DNA of 64,000 bases from NCBI RefSeq assembly GCF_001677475.2, contig NZ_CP015229.1. One strand, given 5' to 3'. The stretch's first letter is position 1. Every line of letters starts with the position of its first letter. The position numbers were made by a program, and so were the translations under genes. Origin of the DNA: Escherichia coli (GTDB lineage: Bacteria > Pseudomonadota > Gammaproteobacteria > Enterobacterales > Enterobacteriaceae). Below, piece by piece: positions 11,566 through 31,764 of this stretch. The notes beneath the pieces were generated by a model. The model was given only the letters and a program-made list of their open reading frames with translations. It was not told the DNA's origin and ran no database searches.

Positions 11566-11640
11566 AGCGGATGCGATATTGTTGTCGCATCCGGCAAAAA
11601 AAAACGGGCAAGGTGTCACCACCCTGCCCATTTTCTTTAA
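11566..11640. terminator. Bidirectional terminator region between hisI and wzzB (two hairpins separated by A9, followed by T-rich run)
   Basis: gcggatgcgata...tgtcgcatccggc A9 gggcaaggtg...accctgccc attttcttt read in sequence. Confidence 0.7.
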
Positions 11641-14131: not shown

Positions 14132-14163
14132 AAAAAAAAGCCCGGTGCAATATACGCCGGGCC
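14132..14163 (-). terminator. Rho-independent terminator downstream of gnd (gcccggtg...cgccgggc with A8 on plus strand = T8 on minus)
   Basis: Hairpin plus homopolymer run read directly. Confidence 0.6.
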
Positions 14164-20808: not shown

Positions 20809-21942
20809 TTAACGCTCCAGAGAAACCGAAACATCATAACCATGGCTTTTAAGAAGTGCATGTTGTTTCGCTTTTAACAAATCGCTAGCAACCATTTCTG
20901 CACACATCTCTTCAACTGTAATCTCTGGTTCCCAGCCTAATAGATTTTTTGCTTTTGCAGGGTCACCTAAGAGTGTTTCAACTTCAGCAGGACGGAAATA
21001 ACGAGGATCAACCCGAACTATAACGTCTCCAACATTTACACCAATAGCACAATCGGAAACTTTATTAACTACTGTGGCTATCTCATCTACACCCTCACCA
21101 GTGAATTCAAGTTCAAGTCCGACTTCTTTAGCAGCCATACGGACAAATTCACGCACAGATATCTGTTTACCTGTGGCGATGACAAAATCCTCTGGATGAT
21201 CTTGCTGAAGCATCATCCATTGCATGCGAACATAATCTTTAGCGTGTCCCCAGTCACGCAACGAATCCAGATTACCCAAATATAAGCATTGTTCGATCCC
21301 CTGAGAAATATTAGCTATTGCACGAGTAATTTTACGAGTAACAAAAGTTTCTCCACGGCGTGGCGATTCATGGTTAAAAAGAATACCATTACAAGCATAT
21401 ATACCATAAGATTCACGGTAGTTAACTGTTATCCAGTAAGCATACATCTTAGCTACAGCATAAGGCGAACGCGGGTAGAATGGAGTTGTTTCACGCTGAG
21501 GAATCTCTTGCACTAAACCAAAAAGTTCTGAAGTAGATGCTTGATAGAAACGTGTTTTTTTCTCCAGCCCACAGATTCGTATTGCTTCTAATAAACGTAA
21601 TGTACCTATTGCATCTACATCTGCTGTATATTCTGGTGACTCGAATGATACTGCGACATGGGATTGTGCACCAAGGTTATAAATTTCATCCGGTTGAATT
21701 TCTTGGATTAAACGGATCAGATTCGATGTATCTGTTAAATCCCCATAGTGTAAAATAAAATTAGGCTCATCAACGAATCGTGATTGATATATATGATCAA
21801 TTCTATCAGTGTTAAATGACGATGCTCGGCGTTTTATACCATGTACTTCATAACCTTTTTCAATAAGAAATTCAGCAAGATATGAACCATCTTGTCCAGT
21901 TACGCCTGTGATAAATGCAACTTTTTTATTCATTTTAATCAT
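20809..21942 (-). CDS. gmd: GDP-mannose 4,6-dehydratase, O-antigen copy (start may be at MNKK, 21930)
   Basis: Colinear with cps Gmd in this window ([37 protein letters not shown]). Confidence 0.9.
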
Positions 21943-21951
21943 GTTATGTTC

Positions 21952-22983
21952 CTAAATATTCAACTCATTATAAACTTTAATCGTTTCATTAACACATTTT
22001 GACCATGAAAATTTTTGCGCCTGCAGTAAACCTCTTTCGATCATAACATTTCTTTTTAAATTAACTAATTCTAAAGCTTCTTTTAACGTAAACTCATTAA
22101 TATCATCAATATAAATAGGCGCATTCCCCCCTACTTCCGGCAACGAGGATGTGTTTGCACAAATAACTGGACATCCGGCCTGCATAGCTTCTAGGACAGG
22201 TATTCCAAACCCCTCATAACTGGAAGGGTAAACAAGTGCATATGCAGTATTATACTGTATATTTAAATCTTCATTACTCAAAAATGTAAAATGTTCATAT
22301 CTATTTTTTAAATATTTTTCAAGGAGTTCTCTTTCATATTTTTTAAGCGAGCCTCCGCCTACAATTGTAAGCTTTAAGCCATGTAATTTCCCTACAGCTT
22401 TGACTGCAAGAACGAAATTTTTATAACCTTCTCTGGCACCGACAAACAAAACTGAATTATTTACTCTCATATCAGATATGTTAGAAATATGTTTATATGA
22501 TGGGGATACACCATTATAAATCACTCTAATTTTATCTTCACTAATTGGACAGTACTTAAGTAAATCTCTAGCAGTGTTGTTTGAAATACAAATTACGATA
22601 TCACTATTCTTGATAGCATGATATTTTTGAAGAGAATGAATAAATTTTGACATTCCTCCCCTGTATTTTTCATAGGTAAAATCATGAACAGTTGTAACAT
22701 TTTTCACATTCAAATTAGGATTTTTATGAACTCGATAATAACTTGAGTGTAAAACCCTAGTTTTAATATCACTTACATTTCTATATCTTTCTAAAATTCT
22801 TGGCTCACGATATTGCAACTTTAAGTCACTTGTATCAAACTCAAATTCTTTATTTTTATACAATAGAATTTCAGCTTGGTAATTTGATTTCACCATTCCT
22901 TGGATCAACTCATTAAAGTATACACTTATTCCACCAAATGATTGGAGATTATAAATAATCCCATCGATAGTTACCATTATCAT
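21952..22983 (-). CDS. Glycosyltransferase family 1 (GT4-like)
   Basis: C-terminal EGFGIPVLEAMQAGCPVI motif typical of GT-B retaining glycosyltransferases. Confidence 0.75.
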   Translation of the reverse strand: MIMVTIDGIIYNLQSFGGISVYFNELIQGMVKSNYQAEILLYKNKEFEFDTSDLKLQYREPRILERYRNVSDIKTRVLHSSYYRVHKNPNLNVKNVTTVHDFTYEKYRGGMSKFIHSLQKYHAIKNSDIVICISNNTARDLLKYCPISEDKIRVIYNGVSPSYKHISNISDMRVNNSVLFVGAREGYKNFVLAVKAVGKLHGLKLTIVGGGSLKKYERELLEKYLKNRYEHFTFLSNEDLNIQYNTAYALVYPSSYEGFGIPVLEAMQAGCPVICANTSSLPEVGGNAPIYIDDINEFTLKEALELVNLKRNVMIERGLLQAQKFSWSKCVNETIKVYNELNI

Positions 22984-24236
22984 CGCCCTCGCAAGGTAAT
23001 ACGTTCGATTAGAACGAACAATATCAAAAAGAAGATCAGTAACAATACATATGCAGGCCCAGAAAAATAAGTTCCAAATGAAGGTGAAATGAGAATTATA
23101 GAAAGCAAAAAATAGGATGCAGAGTTCGTAATTACTTTTGCATTAAACATTTTAAGCTTAGCAAAAATATAGCCATAAAAGATATTCATAGGTGAAAGAA
23201 AAGTTAAAATGACCAGTCCAACATATCCATAATCAACAAAATTATCCATCCCTTTTGAAAAAGCAGGTGTATGCCCCGACTCTGCAGCTCCTGGATAATA
23301 GATTTCATTTACATGCAGAAATCCATATACAAAAGGTTTATCAGGAAACAAACCTCTCGGTATATAAGACCAAAACTGGCTGAAATAGACTGTGCCATTG
23401 AAAAATTTAACCACACCTTTATCAATATCTTGCAGCAAATAAATACTGTTTTGATACTGGTCAAAATAAGACAATACTACATCGACATTCATATTTCCAA
23501 TAGCTAAAAATAAATTATAGAGAATGGCACACGCTGCCAGAGGTGTAACTAAAATCAGGCCAAATTTTAGAAATCTAGATTTATTAAGACTTAACACTGC
23601 AAGATAAAAAATCGCAAATGAAAGAATAAAGGTTTTCGATCCAAGAAAAAAAACCAAGGTACAATAGAATATCGCGCATAAAAATAATTTTATTTCCGAG
23701 CGTAAAGCCAACGCTCTAGAAAAATAAGATACTGAAAGCATACTTAAAGAAAAGGCATACAAAAAACCATTACCTTCTCGATAGTTTTGATAACCATCCC
23801 TGGGATTCGTCAACCATCCAGAAATACCTATTTCTGACTTTGAAGAAAGAAGAACAAATAATGTAACAAACAGAACCAATGTAATATTTGATATTCTTTT
23901 TAATTTTGTATGCGAAATTAAGCAAGTTAAATAGCTCTCTCTATTTTTGAATATTATATTAAAAATAAAATAAAATAAAATTATAGATAAAACACCCACA
24001 AAAGAGTATATGTTATATATGAATAAAGCCTCATTATAATATTGATTTAACGCAAAGTCTGAACCATAGAAAAGAGGGGCCAGAATATTTTCCAATAGAA
24101 AAACCGGGAATAAAATAATGGCGCAAATGGTAAAGGGATTGATAATTGTAAGTCTTAGCGTTTTCGTCGCTAATAAAGAAAAAGAAAAATATAGTACTAC
24201 AGCGAGTGTAACATTTAAACAATATATTATTACCAC
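22980..24236 (-). CDS. wzy: O-antigen polymerase Wzy (candidate)
   Basis: 418-aa highly hydrophobic multi-TM protein with no catalytic motifs of other families, very AT-rich, located in O-antigen cluster. Confidence 0.6.
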   Translation of the reverse strand: MVIIYCLNVTLAVVLYFSFSLLATKTLRLTIINPFTICAIILFPVFLLENILAPLFYGSDFALNQYYNEALFIYNIYSFVGVLSIILFYFIFNIIFKNRESYLTCLISHTKLKRISNITLVLFVTLFVLLSSKSEIGISGWLTNPRDGYQNYREGNGFLYAFSLSMLSVSYFSRALALRSEIKLFLCAIFYCTLVFFLGSKTFILSFAIFYLAVLSLNKSRFLKFGLILVTPLAACAILYNLFLAIGNMNVDVVLSYFDQYQNSIYLLQDIDKGVVKFFNGTVYFSQFWSYIPRGLFPDKPFVYGFLHVNEIYYPGAAESGHTPAFSKGMDNFVDYGYVGLVILTFLSPMNIFYGYIFAKLKMFNAKVITNSASYFLLSIILISPSFGTYFSGPAYVLLLIFFLILFVLIERITLRGR

Positions 24237-24246
24237 ATCCTCTCCC

Positions 24247-25056
24247 CTATCTTAAACCGAATAATTTGCGCTTAATTGATTTTGTTTTTTGATATAATGT
24301 TTGAGGAACAATCATTTTAAATAAAACTTGCAATGTATTATAGACAGCAAATTTTATTTTGTATGATAAGGGCATATGAATATTATTTTTAGCTAGAATG
24401 TAAGCAATTTCTTTCTTGACTAATTTTTTATTAGACTCATTTGAACTTACACCCGAAGCATCCATTATGGATACAGGAAAATTCACATAATGCAACGTAG
24501 ATGGATCTATTGTTCTTATCATAAAATCACTATCAGCAGCAATTTTTAGTGTTGTATCAAAGCGATTAGCATTATCTTTAAAAAAGCTAGAATGCTGGAA
24601 AGTACCCTGATGAGGAGGAAGTGAAGGCCGACCACATTCCCACTTTTTCTGTATTTTTCCGTAAACTCCAACTATATTATCTTTATCACTAAAATATACA
24701 TCACCATATATAGTTGTTGCACTCATATTTTCGTGAATGGCATTTGCTATTTTTGAAAGAGTATTATTTTCATAGAATGTATCGCCAGCTCCCATAAAAA
24801 TAACCCAATCGCCATTTATGTGAGGAAGAGCTTTATTCCAAGCGTCGTATATTCCTTGATCAGATTCGCATAAAAAATAATCTATAATATCAATATATCT
24901 ATAAATATATTCTAGTGTTGATTTGTTAGAGTTGCCGTCTATAACAATCCATTGAATATTACAATAATTTTGATTTTTAATAGATTCTGCAGTCTTGCAG
25001 AAATCTTCCTCACAATTATACGTCGATGTTATTATAGTAATCTGTAAGCCATTCAT
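24247..25056 (-). CDS. Glycosyltransferase family 2
   Basis: ITIITSTYNCEEDF...VIDGNSNKST N-terminal GT2 signature. Confidence 0.75.
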   Translation of the reverse strand: MNGLQITIITSTYNCEEDFCKTAESIKNQNYCNIQWIVIDGNSNKSTLEYIYRYIDIIDYFLCESDQGIYDAWNKALPHINGDWVIFMGAGDTFYENNTLSKIANAIHENMSATTIYGDVYFSDKDNIVGVYGKIQKKWECGRPSLPPHQGTFQHSSFFKDNANRFDTTLKIAADSDFMIRTIDPSTLHYVNFPVSIMDASGVSSNESNKKLVKKEIAYILAKNNIHMPLSYKIKFAVYNTLQVLFKMIVPQTLYQKTKSIKRKLFGLR

Positions 25057-25062
25057 CTTAAC

Positions 25063-25773
25063 TCACTTATTTTTCATAGCAATATATTTTAATCTTAATT
25101 CTTTAATTAATGTCTTTACTTTACTATCAGTGGAATACTCAATATTAAACGTGCCAGAGACTCCTCTTATTTTGGGAATAGTTGTTCCAATAACTCCTTT
25201 TAATTTATTATTTTTAATTTGCTCAAAAAAAATGTGTTCTAAATAAACACCATCAAGGTCACGCACAGATTTATAAGAATTAGCAAAAAAGTCCCAATAT
25301 ATTTTTTTATTTACAACATAAAATCTTGTATCAATCATATTTTCATTCAGAAAAGGAACTGGTATAAAAAAAGCTTTACCATTGAATGCATTTATACATT
25401 GCTTATAATTATCGACGTATAGTTTTGATGTTATTTTTGCAAAACTTTCAGCATTAGACAAATAGCGGCTATTCATTAATGCATACTCAATTATTTCACC
25501 CTCTCCGTAACCTTTACCATAAGATTGAACACTTTCTATATCATTTTTGAAATGTATTATCTCGATCGAATCTTTATTAAGTATTTGTTTATCATTATGA
25601 ATATCTTTCGTCAAATCATAATCACTACCATCACATATTACTATAGAATCAGCATTCTTTGACAACTCTCTTATCGCTTTCAATGTATGTAATAATCTTG
25701 AATTTTCATCAGAAAGATTTGTAAGAGGAGCATTAGGTGAGATACAAGAAGTCACTAATACTGGGATTTTCAT
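25063..25773 (-). CDS. Hypothetical O-antigen cluster protein, ~236 aa (possible glycosyltransferase of unassigned family); start ATG overlaps wzx stop (ATGA)
   Basis: ORF with ATGA coupling to wzx; contains DGSDYD (DxD-like) motif; no family recognised by eye. Confidence 0.4.
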   Translation of the reverse strand: MKIPVLVTSCISPNAPLTNLSDENSRLLHTLKAIRELSKNADSIVICDGSDYDLTKDIHNDKQILNKDSIEIIHFKNDIESVQSYGKGYGEGEIIEYALMNSRYLSNAESFAKITSKLYVDNYKQCINAFNGKAFFIPVPFLNENMIDTRFYVVNKKIYWDFFANSYKSVRDLDGVYLEHIFFEQIKNNKLKGVIGTTIPKIRGVSGTFNIEYSTDSKVKTLIKELRLKYIAMKNK

Positions 25774-27014
25774 TTTTTCTTTTCCAGCCTCAACGAAATT
25801 AACATTAGTATAAAATAATCGACGGTGACTCTTGCGCTCCAAGCATAAGCCACACCTGCTACAGAAAAATACATAATTGAAAAATATAAAACCAGCAGAT
25901 ATGGAATACATTCAACAAGATGAATGAGCCCCGTAATATTTGCATAACCTTTCGATTGGATTTGAGCAAATGGAACTTGAGCAAGAGAGTTGAATACAAA
26001 ACCTACTAATAATATTTGAAATATATAAGGACTCTCAGTGCTATATTGTTTTCCAAGCCATAAAGTTATAATATCACCAGCCTTCAAAGAAAACATAATA
26101 GCTATAACTATACTAGTTACACTTATTAATAACGTAGCCTCTTTTATTATTTTTCTCCGCTCATCTTTTGTATTATTCTTGCATAGAGCAGGAAAAACTG
26201 TCCTTGCTATAGTTGTCGGTAATATAAGTAACTTTGAAATTGCATCTGCAGGAGCAATATATAACGAAGCTTTAGCGGGGCCAACTGCATTTGATAAGAT
26301 AAATCGATCAATATTTGTAAGCAATGGGTTAATTATACTACTAATACTCGCCCATCCTCCAAAACTTAATAGTGCTTTTGTTTTACTTAGACTAAAATCC
26401 ATTGTAAGCCTATTATTTCTAAAAACAAAGAACACGCTTAAAAGAGCACCAACTATTCTCGCAATCACCAATCCCAAAGTAGCATTAAGCAAACCAACAT
26501 TTCCATGAATGAAAATAACTGGTAGTAGCGCAGTTAACACACCTGTAATTGTTTTTTGTACATTCAATAATTTGAACTTTTCATATCCTTCTAATATCCC
26601 CCAACAAACCATATTAAGAAGATAAAATGGCAGACAGTAGGATAAAATACTTATAGCATATGCAACACTTTCAGTTTGTTCCGGACCACTAATTAAGGAT
26701 GCAATCTTATGGTCGCAGTAATAAAAAATTACGGCTACAACAACACCAATAGATAATGTTAATAAAAATGATGTTGTAATTATTTGACTGGTTGCCTTTT
26801 TGTCGTTTTTATTTAATGATATTTCACGCACAACGGCTCGGGAAAGTCCGAGATCAAATATACTTGCGTATCCAACTATTGTAAAAAACATTAAAAAAAA
26901 GCCAAAGTTAGTTATTCCTAACTCCCTTGCCAAATACCCCATCGCAGGTATTGACAATAAAGTTGGGATTGCATACCCAACCAAATTTATTAAACTATTT
27001 ATTTTAATACTCAT
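25770..27014 (-). CDS. wzx: O-antigen flippase Wzx (polysaccharide transporter family)
   Basis: 414-aa protein with ~12 predicted TM segments, located immediately after rmlC. Confidence 0.7.
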   Translation of the reverse strand: MSIKINSLINLVGYAIPTLLSIPAMGYLARELGITNFGFFLMFFTIVGYASIFDLGLSRAVVREISLNKNDKKATSQIITTSFLLTLSIGVVVAVIFYYCDHKIASLISGPEQTESVAYAISILSYCLPFYLLNMVCWGILEGYEKFKLLNVQKTITGVLTALLPVIFIHGNVGLLNATLGLVIARIVGALLSVFFVFRNNRLTMDFSLSKTKALLSFGGWASISSIINPLLTNIDRFILSNAVGPAKASLYIAPADAISKLLILPTTIARTVFPALCKNNTKDERRKIIKEATLLISVTSIVIAIMFSLKAGDIITLWLGKQYSTESPYIFQILLVGFVFNSLAQVPFAQIQSKGYANITGLIHLVECIPYLLVLYFSIMYFSVAGVAYAWSARVTVDYFILMLISLRLEKKK

Positions 27015-27031
27015 TTTTTAATTATCTTTTG

Positions 27032-27574
27032 TCAATAATTATTTTGTATAAATGGAGTGCCCAAACAATCTTTTTGTGATAAAAGAGGTTCTTTGTATAA
27101 TTGCCAATCTATGTTAAGTAAAGCATCATTCCAAATGATACATTTCTCATGTTCTTTTGAGTAAAAATTATTGGTCTTATACAATATTTCTGAACCTTCT
27201 TCTTTTACATAAAAACCATGTGCAAATCCCTCAGGGATCCACAACTGGCGCTTATTCTCAGCAGATAAATTCACCCCAACCCACTTGCCAAAAGTAGGTG
27301 ACGATTTACGAATATCAACCGCAACATCAAAAACCTCACCAACAACGCAACGTACCAATTTCCCTTGCGCATAAGGTTCTAACTGATAATGCAGCCCGCG
27401 TAAAACACCTTTACTAGACTTCGAATGGTTATCCTGGACAAATTCAACCTTACGTCCTACAGCTTCTTCGAATACTTTCTGATTAAAGCTTTCCATAAAG
27501 AAACCACGCTCATCACCAAAAACTTTCGGCTCGAAAATTAACACATCAGGAATTTCTGTTTTAATTACGTTCAT
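27032..27574 (-). CDS. rmlC: dTDP-4-dehydrorhamnose 3,5-epimerase RmlC
   Basis: 180-aa cupin; rmlBDAC order. Confidence 0.9.
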   Translation of the reverse strand: MNVIKTEIPDVLIFEPKVFGDERGFFMESFNQKVFEEAVGRKVEFVQDNHSKSSKGVLRGLHYQLEPYAQGKLVRCVVGEVFDVAVDIRKSSPTFGKWVGVNLSAENKRQLWIPEGFAHGFYVKEEGSEILYKTNNFYSKEHEKCIIWNDALLNIDWQLYKEPLLSQKDCLGTPFIQNNY

Positions 27575-27578
27575 TTTA

Positions 27579-28457
27579 TTAATAACCTTTAATCATTTTC
27601 AGCAGATACTGTCCATAAGCATTTTTTTTCAGCGGCTCCGCTAATGCTTTCACCTGTTCAGCATCAATAAACCCTTTACGGTAAGCAATTTCTTCTGGGC
27701 AGGAAACCTTTAGTCCCTGGCGCTCTTCAATGGTGGCAATGAAGTTGCTTGCTTCAATAAGACTCTGATGTGTCCCCGTATCCAGCCATGCATAACCACG
27801 CCCCATCATGGCAACGGATAAACGCCCCTGTTCCATATAAATACGGTTAATATCGGTAATTTCCAGTTCACCACGGGCAGAAGGCTTAAGGTTTTTCGCC
27901 ATTTCGACAACGTCGTTATCATAGAAATAAAGCCCGGTTACCGCATAATTACTTTTTGGTTGTAGCGGTTTTTCTTCCAGGCAGATCGCCGTACCGTTTT
28001 TATCAAACTCAACGACACCGTAGCGTTCAGGATCATTAACGTGATAGGCAAATACCGTTGCACCACTTTCTTTGTTAACAGCGACATCCATTAACTTCGG
28101 CAGATCATGACCGTAGAAGATATTATCACCAAGAACCAAAGCACAATCATCACCACCGATAAACTCTTCACCGATAATAAACGCCTGCGCAAGCCCATCT
28201 GGAGTCGGTTGCACTTTGTACTGAAGATTTAGCCCCCACTGGCTACCGTCACCCAGCAGTTGTTGAAAACGAGGAGTATCCTGTGGCGTACTAATAATCA
28301 GAATATCGCGAATACCCGCCAACATCAGTGTAGAGAGCGGGTAATAGATCATCGGCTTATCATAAATAGGTAATAGCTGTTTACTGACAGCCATAGTCAC
28401 AGGATAAAGACGTGTACCAGAACCACCCGCTAAAATAATACCTTTACGCGTTTTCAT
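27579..28457 (-). CDS. rmlA: Glucose-1-phosphate thymidylyltransferase RmlA
   Basis: [19 protein letters not shown] nucleotidyltransferase N-terminus; 292 aa. Confidence 0.95.
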
Positions 28458-28514
28458 TTCATCATTCCTTTTAATTCATCTTGCTCCACCATCACGAACA
28501 AGATGCAAAAACTA

Positions 28515-29414
28515 TTAAATTGCTGTAGTCGTAAATAATTCGTTGAGCATTCGTTTCACACCAACCTGCCACTCAGGCAAGACAAGCGCAAAGTTCTGCT
28601 GAAATTTTTCTGTATTAAGGCGAGAGTTATGTGGACGACGAGCTGGTGTAGGATAGGCTGTTGTTGGTACTGCGTTGAGCTTGTTGAGTGCAAGGGGAAT
28701 ACCTGCTTTGCGCGCCTCTTCAAAAACCAGCGCAGCATAATCGTGCCAGGTTGTGGTACCACTGGCTACCAGATGGTACAAACCTGCGACTTCCGGTTTA
28801 TTCAGTGCCACACGAATAACATGTGCCGTACAATCAGCCAGCAGCTCAGCACCTGTTGGCGCACCAAATTGATCATTTATCACAGCCAGTTCTTCGCGCT
28901 CTTTTGCCAGACGCAACATCGTTTTGGCGAAGTTATTTCCTTTACCTGCGTATACCCAGCTGGTACGGAAAATAAGATGCTTCGCGCAATGTTCCTGTAA
29001 CGCTTTTTCTCCGGCTAACTTGGTTTCACCGTAAACATTTAGCGGTGCGGTTGCATCCGTCTCCAGCCATGGCGTGTCGCCATTTCCAGGGAAGACGTAG
29101 TCAGTTGAGTAATGAATTACCCAAGCCCCAACTTCATTAGCCGCTTTTGCAATTGATTCAACGCTAGTCGCATTGAGTAATTGTGCAAATTCGGGTTCTG
29201 ACTCAGCCTTATCTACTGCGGTGTGAGCCGCAGCATTAACAATAACATCAGGTCGAATTCTTTTGACTGTTTCAGCTACACCTTCAGGATTACTAAAATC
29301 ACCACAATAATCAGTGGAGTGAACATCAAGAGCAATCAAATTACCCAAAGGTGCCAGAGCACGCTGTAGTTCCCAACCTACCTGCCCTGTTTTGCCGAAA
29401 AGGAGGATATTCAT
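28515..29414 (-). CDS. rmlD: dTDP-4-dehydrorhamnose reductase RmlD
   Basis: [20 protein letters not shown]; 299 aa. Confidence 0.95.
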   Translation of the reverse strand: MNILLFGKTGQVGWELQRALAPLGNLIALDVHSTDYCGDFSNPEGVAETVKRIRPDVIVNAAAHTAVDKAESEPEFAQLLNATSVESIAKAANEVGAWVIHYSTDYVFPGNGDTPWLETDATAPLNVYGETKLAGEKALQEHCAKHLIFRTSWVYAGKGNNFAKTMLRLAKEREELAVINDQFGAPTGAELLADCTAHVIRVALNKPEVAGLYHLVASGTTTWHDYAALVFEEARKAGIPLALNKLNAVPTTAYPTPARRPHNSRLNTEKFQQNFALVLPEWQVGVKRMLNELFTTTAI

Positions 29415-30499
29415 TACTGGCGGCCCTCATAGTTCTGTGCAATCCACGATTGATAGGCACCACTTTTCACATTATCAACCCATTTTGTATTGGACAGGTA
29501 CCATTCCACTGTCTTCCGAATCCCGCTCTCAAACGTTTCCTGCGGTTTCCAGCCCAATTCGCGGCTAATCTTCTCAGCATCAATCGCATAACGGCGATCG
29601 TGTCCCGGGCGGTCGGCAACATAAGTAATTTGCTCACGATAAGATTTCTCTTTCGGTACAATCTCATCCAGCAAATCACAAATAGTAAGCACTACATCGA
29701 TGTTTTTCTTTTCGTTGTGTCCGCCAATATTATAGGTTTCGCCTGCTTTACCTTCAGTAACGACTGTATATAACGCTCGAGCATGATCCTCGACATACAA
29801 CCAATCGCGAATTTGATCCCCTTTACCATAAATAGGTAATGCTTTACCTTCCAGAGCATTCAGAATAACCAATGGAATCAATTTTTCCGGGAAATGATAA
29901 GGGCCATAATTGTTAGAGCAATTAGTCACAATGGTCGGTAAACCATAGGTACGTTTCCACGCGCGGACTAAATGATCGCTGGATGCTTTGGATGCGGAAT
30001 AAGGGCTGCTTGGTGCGTAAGCTGTTGTCTCAGTAAATAAGGGTAATTTTTCTTTATTATTTACTTCGTCAGGATGAGGCAAATCACCATAGACTTCGTC
30101 AGTAGAAATATGATGAAAACGGAAGCTATTTTTCTTGTCGCTATCAAGAGCAGACCAGTAATTGCGAGCGGCTTCCAAAAGGACATAAGTACCAACAATA
30201 TTGGTTTCAATAAATGCCGCAGGGCCTGTAATTGAACGATCCACATGGCTTTCAGCAGCCAGGTGCATCACTGCATCCGGCTGATGCAGAGCAAAAATCC
30301 GCGCCATTGCAGCAGCATCGCAAATATCCGCATGTTCAAAAACATAGCGTTCAGAATCAGAAACATCAGCAAGTGATTCCAGGTTTCCGGCGTACGTTAA
30401 TTTATCGACATTAACAACACTATCCTGCGTATTATTTATAATGTGACGAACTACAGCAGAACCAATAAATCCTGCGCCACCAGTAACAAGTATTTTCAC
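29414..30499 (-). CDS. rmlB: dTDP-glucose 4,6-dehydratase RmlB
   Basis: [20 protein letters not shown]; 361 aa SDR. Confidence 0.95.
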
Positions 30500-30573
30500 T
30501 TAATTATTCCATATTACTTCAGAGCATGCTGTGAAATAAGCGGCTCTTAGTTTGATTAATAGAGGTATTAATG

Positions 30574-30612
30574 CACGCTACCGCCCCTGGCTTTACAGCT
30601 ACCAGAGCACTG
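30574..30612 (-). promoter_or_regulatory. JUMPstart element containing ops (GGCGGTAGCGTG) upstream of the O-antigen operon
   Basis: Minus-strand read: cagtgctctggtagctgtaaagccaggggcggtagcgtg, matching the remembered 39-bp JUMPstart consensus. Confidence 0.9.
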
Positions 30613-30870
30613 CATGCATGCCTACGATGTGACGAGCGTTACCCACTCGCGCTAAACCCGAAAAATTCAAACACTAATTGTCTTACCAATCCGCTCTGGA
30701 AACAAGGAAAATCCTGGAAAACTTTGACTAAAATCCTATTGCTAACTCGTTGTTATCCTGATTGTTTATATAAAACAACGGCAGGAATATTCGCAACAAA
30801 TTACTTTCGCCACGAATCTTCACTGCCGTTATAATTTTCTTATCAACCGTTACATTCGGTCAGATTTTCA

Positions 30871-31764
30871 TTATTCGCTTAACAGCTTCTCAATGCCTTT
30901 ACGGAACTTCGCCCCTTCTTTCAGGTTGCGTAGTCCATACTTCACGAACGCTTGCATATAACCCATTTTTTTACCGCAGTCGTAGCTGTCACCAGTCATC
31001 AGCATTGCATCAACAGACTGTTTTTTCGCCAGTTCGGCAATGGCATCTGTCAGTTGGATACGTCCCCATGCACCTGGCTGAGTGCGTTCAAGTTCCGGCC
31101 AAATATCGGCAGAAAGCACATAGCGACCAACGGCCATGATGTCTGAGTCCAGCGTCTGCGGCTGATCCGGTTTTTCGATGAATTCAACAATGCGGCTGAC
31201 TTTACCTTCGCGATCCAGTGGTTCTTTGGTCTGAATAACGGAGTATTCAGAGAGGTCACCCGGCATACGTTTTGCCAGCACCTGGCTGCGGCCCGTTTCG
31301 TTGAAGCGCGCAATCATGGCAGCAAGGTTGTAGCGCAGCGGGTCGGCGCTGGCGTCATCGATCACAACGTCTGGCAGCACCACGACAAATGGGTTGTCAC
31401 CAATGGCGGGTCGTGCACACAAAATGGAGTGGCCCAAACCTAAAGGTTCGCCCTGACGCACGTTCATAATGGTCACGCCCGGTGGACAGATGGACTGCAC
31501 TTCCGCAAGCAGTTGACGCTTCACGCGCTGCTCAAGGAGAGATTCTAATTCATAAGAGGTGTCGAAGTGGTTTTCGACCGCGTTCTTGGACGCGTGAGTT
31601 ACCAGGAGGATTTCTTTGATCCCTGCAGCAACAATCTCGTCAACAATGTACTGAATCATTGGCTTGTCGACGATCGGTAGCATCTCTTTGGGAATCGCCT
31701 TAGTGGCAGGCAACATATGCATCCCAAGACCCGCTACAGGAATAACTGCTTTTAAATTCGTCAT
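30871..31764 (-). CDS. galF: UTP-glucose-1-phosphate uridylyltransferase-like regulatory subunit GalF (start at [14 protein letters not shown])
   Basis: ORF translation; conserved position between cps and O-antigen clusters. Confidence 0.95.

What the first reader, a model, noticed from the sequence alone, without database searches (positions are those of the whole stretch)
22980..27014. Very AT-rich wzx/wzy segment with A8/T8 homopolymer tracts inside coding sequence
The wzx, unknown-gene and wzy segment is the most AT-rich part of the window. It contains 8-nt A/T runs within coding regions at 23646-23653 (wzy), 25225-25232 (unknown gene) and 26893-26900 (wzx). Such tracts can cause slipped-strand frameshifts affecting O-antigen expression, but in AT-rich DNA they also arise by chance.
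Basis: seen in the sequence. Interest (0 to 1): 0.25.

Follow-up and report, generated by a model that had tools for sequence, protein, structure and literature searches.

The report
Chance T-runs; one recurrently breaks wzy
The three 8-base A/T runs are ordinary by-products of Phe-Phe codons in AT-rich E. coli O36 O-antigen genes, but the run in the polymerase gene wzy has lost a base in a lineage that supplies about 60% of the public contigs counted, so many "O36" genomes probably cannot polymerise their O-antigen.

Summary
Window 22980-27014 is the AT-richest part of the window (30.9% GC against 49% elsewhere). It has exactly three A8 runs at the stated places.

Each run is T8 on the coding strand, made of TTT TTT (Phe-Phe) plus flanking T. 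Three runs is what codon usage predicts (expected 2.99). A change of one base at any run truncates the protein.

Across 26 related O36 loci and exact-protein look-ups, the wzx and unknown-gene runs never vary, apart from one error-ridden assembly. The wzy run does vary.
- A T7 frameshift allele occurs in one haplotype group, often with a second 1-base deletion 70 nt upstream.
- It accounts for about 490 contigs, against about 310 with intact wzy.
- T8 and T7 sit on 21-kb backgrounds that differ by one SNP.
- SNP polarity implies at least two length changes, or recombination.
- One T9 allele occurs on another haplotype.

This looks like an ordinary homopolymer hotspot causing largely one-way wzy loss. 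A semi-rough LPS is predicted, as in Nissle 1917. It does not look like programmed phase variation. Interest is modest.

The parts
22980..24236 (-). wzy, the O36 O-antigen polymerase. It is 418 aa with a GTG start and is intact in this window.
   Evidence: ORF. RefSeq names it 'O36 family O-antigen polymerase'. It is colinear with a 418-aa Escherichia O-antigen polymerase at 88% identity and no gaps. The exact protein is on record as P0015 on 46 contigs.
23646..23653 (-). T8 run on the coding strand of wzy, codons 195-197 (GTT TTT TTT CTT = V F F L). It is the only one of the three runs that varies between isolates (T7, T8, T9).
   Evidence: A loss of one base gives a 214-aa product and a gain of one base gives a 217-aa product. 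The T7 products are on 76-123 contigs, and on 219-364 contigs when combined with the second deletion.
23716..23720 (-). T5 run in wzy, 70 nt upstream of the T8 run in the gene. It is shortened to T4 in one sub-lineage of the T7 allele, which is a second frameshift.
   Evidence: The resulting 181-aa product is on 364 contigs.
24247..25056 (-). GT2-family glycosyltransferase, 269 aa. It has no A/T run of 7 or more.
   Evidence: Pfam PF00535 at E = 7e-19, the RefSeq annotation, and the run counts per gene.
25063..25773 (-). The 'unknown gene', 236 aa. Its start overlaps the wzx stop by 4 nt. The predicted structure has the fold shared by nucleotide-sugar transferases (GT-A-like). It is most likely the fourth glycosyltransferase of the cluster; that function is inferred.
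   Evidence: RefSeq calls it 'hypothetical protein'. It has no Pfam or NCBIfam match above threshold. There are 246 homologues without a Pfam domain. The AlphaFold2 model has mean pLDDT 95.6. Foldseek matches sugar nucleotidyltransferases (HddC, TarI, IspD) and GT-A glycosyltransferases (KfiA, LARGE1, COLGALT1) with TM-scores of 0.4-0.5.
25225..25232 (-). T8 run in the unknown gene, codons 181-183 (ATT TTT TTT GAG = I F F E). It is invariant in credible sequences.
   Evidence: The product expected after losing one base is found only in the error-ridden assembly L010, and the product expected after gaining one base is not on record. The intact protein is on 568+244 contigs. The run is also T8 in the sister cluster at 86% identity.
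25770..27014 (-). wzx, the O36 O-unit flippase, 414 aa.
   Evidence: Pfam PF01943 at E = 4e-24 and PF13440, and the RefSeq name 'O36 family O-antigen flippase'.
26893..26900 (-). T8 run in wzx, codons 39-41 (GGC TTT TTT TTA = G F F L). It is invariant in credible sequences.
   Evidence: The run is also T8 in the sister cluster. A change of one base would leave a product of 40 or 53 aa.

Best explanation
The segment is the serotype-specific core of the E. coli O36 O-antigen gene cluster. Like such regions generally, it has about 30% GC. Its membrane and transferase proteins are rich in Phe, and Phe is encoded about 80% by TTT. Wherever Phe-Phe is flanked by a T-ending and a T-starting codon, a T8 run appears on the coding strand, which reads as A8 on the + strand. 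That accounts for all three runs, and their number is what codon usage predicts. They are not programmed switches.

Any 8-base run is still a replication-slippage hotspot. In wzx and the 236-aa gene, length changes are not seen, presumably because they are removed by selection; I infer that blocking the pathway before ligation traps the undecaprenyl-phosphate carrier. In wzy a loss is tolerated, because single O-units can still be ligated to the lipid A-core. There, a T8 to T7 deletion truncates Wzy at residue 214. It has spread through one haplotype group and was followed by a second deletion (T5 to T4) and by amino-acid changes, as expected for a gene no longer under selection.

The window itself carries the intact T8 allele. 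Shown here: the anatomy, the chance expectation, the allele distribution and the haplotype relations. Inferred: the semi-rough LPS phenotype of T7 strains and the selective reasons.
For: Identity: the segment is 98-99.5% identical to 8 complete E. coli genomes annotated as O36 wzx/wzy, between galF/rmlBDAC and gmd-fcl-manC-manB-gnd. An ops element lies upstream of rmlB at 30578-30585.

Chance: 3 runs of 8 or more were observed against 2.99 expected under synonymous-codon shuffling. TTT:TTC counts are 39:9, 10:4, 10:2 and 22:4 in the four genes.

Codon context and truncation by a change of one base.

Invariance of the wzx and unknown-gene runs: 25 of 26 O36 loci, the exception (L010) being short in all three runs. 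Protein look-ups give the same result.

wzy polymorphism: T7 occurs in L002, L003, L007, L009, L012, L031, L032 and L033. These come from PacBio, hybrid and Illumina-based assemblies of independent projects. The truncated products are on 76-364 contigs. Intact Wzy is on 187+46+60+17 contigs.

Stepwise decay: the intact protein with the L012-type sequence exists (P0046, 17 contigs). The 'repaired' version of the double-deletion haplotype does not exist.

Other evidence: the wzy run is not conserved in the sister cluster, which has GTG TTT TTT CTA, a T6 run. Indel rates rise exponentially with run length in E. coli (PMC8510543). A natural wzy-null strain gives semi-rough LPS in Nissle 1917 (PMC7924626, citing Grozdanov 2002).
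Against: The wzy run has changed more than once. T8 and T7 alleles sit on 20.7-kb backgrounds that differ by a single SNP. One derived SNP (window 24937) groups T8 and T7 members together. Another (25714) groups the remaining T7 haplotypes. So either two independent losses, a reversion from T7 to T8, or recombination is needed. A T9 allele exists on a third haplotype. That recurrence, and the possibility of reversion, is what a low-rate switch would also produce.

The phenotype of T7 strains was not measured. The contig counts mix sources that may have assembled the same isolates, and they count only exact protein sequences.
Confidence: 0.75

Rival explanations
1. The wzy T8 run is a genuine, if slow, contingency switch. 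Slipped-strand mispairing toggles Wzy ON (T8) and OFF (T7 or T9) reversibly. Lineages could then alternate between long-chain and single-unit O-antigen under phage, serum or immune selection.
For: Of the three runs, only the one in the gene whose loss is tolerated varies. T8 and T7 sit on backgrounds that differ by 1 SNP in 20.7 kb. SNP polarity requires at least two events or a reversion. There is an independent T9 allele. OFF alleles reach about 60% of the contigs counted, which suggests that loss can be advantageous.
Against: The run length of 8 is below the A/T cut-off of 10 used for phase-variable tracts, and E. coli has mismatch repair (my own knowledge). The run is not conserved in the sister cluster and runs are not enriched. 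The OFF allele persists through sub-lineages that have since gained 6-17 SNPs, a second frameshift and amino-acid changes. There are no T7 products among about 290 contigs of three other haplotypes. No direct evidence of a T7 to T8 reversion was found; one early loss on an unchanged haplotype plus one recombination or parallel loss explains the data.
Confidence: 0.15
2. The frameshifted wzy (T7) still yields some full-length Wzy. RNA polymerase slippage or ribosomal frameshifting on the U-run would restore the frame, so T7 strains would remain at least partly smooth.
For: All other genes of the cluster remain intact in T7 genomes, which fits continued use of the pathway. Little Wzy may be needed for activity (my own knowledge, not tested here).
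Against: To my knowledge, productive transcriptional slippage in enterobacteria is described for runs of about 9 or more, and this run has only 7. The most common allele has a second frameshift 70 nt upstream (net loss of two bases) that a single slip cannot correct. Intact neighbouring genes are equally expected if single O-units are still made and ligated.
Confidence: 0.07
3. The run-length differences are sequencing or assembly errors at homopolymers, and all isolates really carry T8.
For: Two assemblies are clearly error-prone. L010 is short by one base in all three runs and has other indels. L008 (the same record as L013) has scattered indels and an internal stop.
Against: T7 is found with the other two runs intact in complete genomes from independent projects, in an NCTC long-read assembly, and in many short-read assemblies. 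It tracks the SNP haplotype. Its predicted products are on hundreds of contigs.
Confidence: 0.03

Closest known systems
E. coli O36 O-antigen gene cluster (Wzx/Wzy-dependent, at the galF-gnd locus)
   Same: The segment is 98-99.5% identical in nucleotides to the wzx and wzy genes annotated as O36 family in 8 complete genomes. Gene order is the same: rmlBDAC, wzx, 236-aa gene, GT2, wzy, GT4, gmd-fcl-gmm-manC, GT2, manB. The O36 structure and cluster were published by Perepelov et al. 2014, cited in PMC7685785. That paper is not held and I did not read it.
   Different: Nothing essential differs; the window is a member. It carries the intact (T8) wzy allele, whereas many public genomes with this cluster carry T7.
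Natural wzy-null, semi-rough E. coli such as Nissle 1917 (O6)
   Same: A small mutation inside wzy truncates the polymerase while the rest of the cluster stays intact. In Nissle this gives lipid A-core capped with one O-unit, and serum sensitivity (PMC7924626, citing Grozdanov et al. 2002).
   Different: The Nissle mutation is a single-nucleotide exchange. Here the mutation is a 1-base deletion in a T8 run, and it is shared by a whole haplotype group, not one strain. The phenotype of the O36 T7 strains has not been measured.
Simple-sequence-repeat contingency loci of surface-glycan genes in Campylobacter, Neisseria, Haemophilus and Helicobacter
   Same: A homopolymer lies inside a glycan-biosynthesis gene, and its length changes switch the reading frame. 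Length variants are seen between close relatives.
   Different: The known cases use G/C runs of 7 or more, or A/T runs of 10 or more. They switch at high, reversible rates. To my knowledge the best-studied hosts among them (Campylobacter, Helicobacter) lack canonical mismatch repair. Here the run is A/T of 8 in a mismatch-repair-proficient species. It is not enriched, not conserved in the sister cluster, and mostly fixed within lineages.
Yersinia pestis O-antigen cluster decay (my own knowledge, not checked here)
   Same: An O-antigen pathway is inactivated by small frameshifts, several of them in short homopolymers, and these are inherited clonally.
   Different: In Y. pestis several genes are hit and the whole species is rough. 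Here only wzy is hit, and only in part of the O36 population.

Membership tests
SSR-mediated phase-variable (contingency) locus | Repeat tract at or above the length shown to support phase variation (poly-G/C of 7 or more; poly-A/T of 10 or more in PhasomeIt) | tested here: not met
   All three runs are A/T of 8. The cut-offs come from PMC6321876.
SSR-mediated phase-variable (contingency) locus | Tracts more frequent than composition or codon usage predicts | tested here: not met
   3 observed against 2.99 expected under synonymous-codon shuffling; 63% of shuffles reach 3.
SSR-mediated phase-variable (contingency) locus | Tract-length polymorphism among closely related isolates | tested here: inconclusive
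   Met for wzy: T8 and T7 on backgrounds 1 SNP apart over 20.7 kb, plus one T9. Not met for the wzx and 236-aa-gene runs, which are T8 in all credible sequences.
SSR-mediated phase-variable (contingency) locus | High-frequency, reversible ON/OFF switching within a clonal population | not testable with these tools
   This needs read-level data or colony assays. Indirect evidence is against it: the OFF allele persists through diverged sub-lineages and has acquired a second frameshift, and three other haplotypes show no T7.
SSR-mediated phase-variable (contingency) locus | Tract retained in orthologues | tested here: not met
   The sister cluster at 86% identity has GTG TTT TTT CTA (T6) in wzy. 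The wzx and 236-aa-gene runs are retained, but they are simply Phe-Phe codons.
E. coli O36 Wzx/Wzy-dependent O-antigen cluster | wzx and wzy close to the O36 reference genes, located between galF and gnd | tested here: met
   98-99.5% identity to genes that RefSeq names O36 family flippase and polymerase. The flanking genes are galF, rmlBDAC, gmd, fcl, manC, manB and gnd.
E. coli O36 Wzx/Wzy-dependent O-antigen cluster | Wzx belongs to the polysaccharide-flippase (MOP) superfamily | tested here: met
   PF01943 at E = 4e-24, PF13440 at E = 2e-21, and NF007773 (MOP flippase) at E = 4e-23.
Natural wzy-null (semi-rough) variant | Premature termination inside wzy while the rest of the cluster is intact | tested here: not met
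   Not met for the window, where wzy is an intact 418-aa ORF. Met in relatives L002, L003, L007, L009, L012 and L031-L033.
Natural wzy-null (semi-rough) variant | LPS carrying a single O-unit on the lipid A-core | not testable with these tools
   This requires LPS gel electrophoresis of T7 isolates.

The most novel reading that the evidence does not exclude
The T8 run in O36 wzy acts as a slow but selectable two-way switch of O-antigen polymerisation in E. coli. Losses (T7, T9) and at least one restoration (T7 to T8 inside the mixed clade) would let lineages move between smooth and semi-rough LPS. This would be a repeat-mediated on/off control of an O-antigen polymerase in a mismatch-repair-proficient enterobacterium.
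Probability: 0.12. Interest if true: 0.5.

Novelty: new member of a known kind. Interest (0 to 1): 0.3.

Why it matters
The main value is practical. In-silico O-typing calls "O36" from the presence of wzx and wzy, to my knowledge. Roughly 60% of the public contigs that carry one of the exact Wzy products I counted encode a frameshifted polymerase. Those strains are predicted to be semi-rough, so they may fail serum agglutination, may be more serum-sensitive, and may differ in phage susceptibility.

It is also a clean natural illustration of selection acting on equal mutational hotspots. Of three identical 8-base runs in one operon, only the run in the gene whose loss is tolerated shows variants.

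It does not reveal a new mechanism.

Tried and rejected
- Enrichment of runs: four null models were tried (mononucleotide, Markov, codon-order and synonymous-codon shuffles). None shows an excess at length 8 or more.
- Sequencing artefact as the explanation for T7: rejected, because T7 tracks the SNP haplotype and appears across platforms with the other runs intact. It is accepted only for L010 and L008/L013.
- Compensating double frameshift: the two deletions in L002, L003 and L007 remove two bases in all and do not restore the frame.
- Hidden regulatory features: promoter-like and terminator-like sites in 22500-31500 are at shuffle level. The + strand ORFs at 24995-25246 and 26038-26508 are not annotated in any of the 8 RefSeq genomes.
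- Literature: searches for O36 with wzy and frameshift or truncation, and for wzy homopolymer phase variation in E. coli, found no description of this allele. The O36 structure paper is not held.
- Function of the 236-aa gene: Pfam, NCBIfam and a PDB sequence search gave nothing significant. Only the structure prediction plus fold search was informative.
- A first fuzzy-anchor survey of run lengths absorbed run bases into the anchors. I redid it with anchors that allow substitutions only.
Full report
**What is there**

Window 22980-27014 is 30.9% GC, against 49.3% for the rest of the window. The lowest-GC 4-kb stretch starts at 22231, and the lowest-GC 100-nt stretch (15% GC) lies inside the first gene at 23882.

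The segment holds four genes, all on the minus strand:
- wzy at 22980-24236 (418 aa, GTG start)
- an unannotated 236-aa gene at 25063-25773
- wzx at 25770-27014

Megablast finds the segment in 8 of 5,426 complete E. coli genomes at 97.9-99.5% identity. There the genes are annotated as O36 family O-antigen polymerase and flippase. They sit between galF-rmlBDAC and gmd-fcl-gmm-manC-GT2-manB-gnd. An ops element lies upstream of rmlB at 30578-30585 on the minus strand. So the segment is the serotype-specific core of the known E. coli O36 O-antigen cluster.

**Are the runs more than chance?**

No. On the coding strand each run is T8 built from TTT TTT (Phe-Phe) plus neighbouring T:
- wzy codons 195-197: GTT TTT TTT CTT (V F F L)
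- the 236-aa gene, codons 181-183: ATT TTT TTT GAG (I F F E)
- wzx codons 39-41: GGC TTT TTT TTA (G F F L)

TTT outnumbers TTC about 4:1 in these genes. The three observed runs compare with 1.2 expected from a mononucleotide shuffle, 1.9 from a first-order Markov chain, 2.45 from shuffling codon order, and 2.99 from shuffling synonymous codons. In the last model, 63% of shuffles reach three.

**Would a slip matter?**

Yes, at all three runs. Losing or gaining one base leaves 214 or 217 of 418 aa of Wzy, 190 or 183 of 236 aa of the unknown protein, and 40 or 53 of 414 aa of Wzx.

**Do the run lengths vary between isolates?**

I aligned the 8 complete genomes. I added 18 O36 loci fetched through exact look-ups of neighbouring or variant proteins. 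Four further loci of a diverged sister cluster were fetched separately.

The wzx run and the unknown-gene run are T8 in every locus except L010. That assembly is one base short in all three runs and has further indels, so it is an error-prone assembly.

Exact-sequence look-ups in the 15-billion-protein collection agree. The intact 236-aa protein is on 568+244 contigs. The product expected after losing one base is on one contig, which is L010. The product expected after gaining one base is not on record.

The wzy run does vary.
- It is T8 in the window, L001, L004-L006, L011, L016, L017 and L022-L029.
- It is T7 in L002, L003, L007, L009, L012, L031, L032 and L033.
- The two error-prone assemblies also read T7.
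- L002, L003, L007 and L009 carry a second 1-base deletion in a T5 run 70 nt upstream (window 23716-23720). The net loss is two bases.

The T7 allele is real. It occurs with the other two runs intact. It is found in independent complete genomes, in an NCTC long-read assembly and in many short-read assemblies. It also tracks the SNP haplotype.

Contig counts for the exact predicted products:

| Product | Contigs |
|---|---|
| Intact Wzy, four sequence variants | 187, 46, 60, 17 |
| T7 N-terminal product (214 aa) | 76 |
| T7 C-terminal product (240 aa) | 123 |
| T7+T4 N-terminal product (181 aa) | 364 |
| T7+T4 C-terminal product (240 aa) | 219 |

Taking the larger number of each pair gives about 490 frameshifted against about 310 intact, or about 61%. 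This is rough. Sources overlap, and only exact sequences are counted.

**History of the allele**

Over 5,063 nt (wzx to GT4), eight T8 loci and three T7 loci have the same SNP haplotype. L022 (T8) and L031 (T7) differ by one SNP in 20.7 kb, which includes gnd.

A 'repaired' version of that T7 haplotype exists as an intact protein (P0046, 17 contigs). The repaired version of the double-deletion haplotype does not exist. This fits an order of events: intact, then T7, then T7 plus T4 plus two amino-acid changes.

Polarising SNPs against the other haplotypes gives two groupings. One derived site (window 24937) unites the mixed T8/T7 haplotype. Another (25714) unites the remaining T7 haplotypes, L032 and the L014 type. 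Each grouping rests on a single SNP. If they hold, the run changed at least twice (two losses, or a loss and a reversion), or recombination moved the allele.

Separately, one short-read contig on a third haplotype has T9 with all other runs normal. The three other main haplotypes, on about 290 contigs, show no T7 product.

In a sister cluster from other Escherichia lineages (86% nucleotide identity, Wzy 88% identical), the wzx and unknown-gene runs are T8. The wzy site reads GTG TTT TTT CTA, a run of only T6.

**Interpretation**

All three runs arise by chance from codon usage. Indel rates in E. coli rise exponentially with run length (PMC8510543), so any 8-base run is a hotspot. Variants are seen only in wzy, the gene whose loss is tolerated.

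The reasons below are inference from established knowledge of the Wzx/Wzy pathway:
- Without Wzy, single O-units are still flipped and ligated to the lipid A-core, which gives semi-rough LPS.
- The natural wzy mutant Nissle 1917 shows exactly this (PMC7924626, citing Grozdanov 2002).
- Blocks at the flippase or a late transferase strand the lipid carrier.

A back-of-envelope comparison is my own rough inference. It sets two or three run events against about 18-120 SNPs per 5 kb of tree. That puts the run at a few hundred times the per-site substitution rate. This is ordinary for an 8-base run and far below contingency-locus rates.

The field's working cut-off for phase-variable A/T tracts is 10 (PMC6321876). 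The OFF allele's persistence, its second frameshift and the absence of the run in the sister cluster all argue for one-way decay, not programmed switching. A slow, selectable two-way switch is not excluded, because of the mixed T8/T7 clade. I give it about 0.12-0.15.

**The unknown gene**

It has no significant Pfam, NCBIfam or PDB sequence match. It belongs to a widespread family of 240-260-aa proteins without a Pfam domain (246 hits). Invariant residues include a C-D-G-S motif and G-K-G-x-G-E-G.

An AlphaFold2 model from a 54-sequence alignment has mean pLDDT 95.6. Foldseek places it with nucleotide-diphospho-sugar transferase folds. These include the sugar nucleotidyltransferases HddC, TarI and IspD, and the GT-A glycosyltransferases KfiA, LARGE1 and COLGALT1. 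E-values are about 1e-6 to 1e-5 and TM-scores 0.4-0.5.

The dTDP-rhamnose and GDP-sugar pathways of the cluster are already complete. A fourth glycosyltransferase is therefore the most likely role. This is inferred, not shown.

**Compared with what is known**

The cluster itself is already known. The T7 allele is flagged as 'frameshifted' in RefSeq. I found no paper that describes it, its frequency or its link to the homopolymer. It is a new example of a known kind of event, natural wzy inactivation at a homopolymer hotspot. It is not a new mechanism.

**Verdict**

Interest is about 0.3, mainly for concordance between genotype and serotype.

Noticed in passing
L001 9001-10257; L004, L005 and L006 1001-2257 (equivalent to window 22980-24236): RefSeq (PGAP) flags wzy as a 'frameshifted' pseudogene in all 8 complete genomes. 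Four of these have an uninterrupted 418-aa ORF of the same length as the window's, and their exact proteins are annotated as intact in GenBank (P0014, P0016). Possibly the reference evidence is dominated by products of the common T7 allele. This is unexplained.
   Followed up: partly
L001 5631-7954 (equivalent to window about 20809-21942, gmd): In strain E06, the closest relative of the window, gmd is split by an IS5-like ISKpn26 element. This is a second, independent way of disabling this O-antigen cluster. In the window gmd is intact.
   Followed up: no
window 14132-14139: Another A8 run forms the U-tract of a stem-loop terminator just downstream of gnd (minus strand: GCCCGGCG...CACCGGGC followed by T8). 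It is one base shorter in 2 of 5 aligned sequences (L001 and L032). This shows that an unconstrained 8-base run in the same neighbourhood also varies.
   Followed up: partly
window 27622-27629 (rfbA/rmlA): This T8 run on the + strand inside rmlA is specific to the window/L001 haplotype. All other O36 loci read TTTTTCTT there, so it is a run created by a single substitution.
   Followed up: partly
window 23930-24000 (inside wzy): This is the most AT-rich spot of the whole window (15-17% GC). Many draft assemblies end inside wzy just downstream of it, giving 'partial' Wzy proteins of 289-312 aa that start near residue 107-130. That suggests coverage drop-out in short-read libraries.
   Followed up: no
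L018-L021 (sister cluster); P0003 and P0066 (Buttiauxella noackiae): A colinear sister O-antigen cluster at 86% nucleotide identity occurs in contigs whose Wzy is annotated from E. ruysiae and other non-coli Escherichia. A more distant version occurs in Buttiauxella (Wzy 61% and the 236-aa protein 50% identical). So the O36-type cluster has relatives outside E. coli.
   Followed up: partly
window 25063-25911: The longest ORF for the 236-aa gene runs 282 aa and overlaps the end of wzx by 142 nt. One old annotation uses it (P0056). The 236-aa start at 25773 overlaps the wzx stop by 4 nt (ATGA) and is the one used by RefSeq and by nearly all records.
   Followed up: partly
window 11596-11604: This A9 run is the longest homopolymer in the window. 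It lies next to a GC-rich inverted repeat outside the O-antigen cluster.
   Followed up: no
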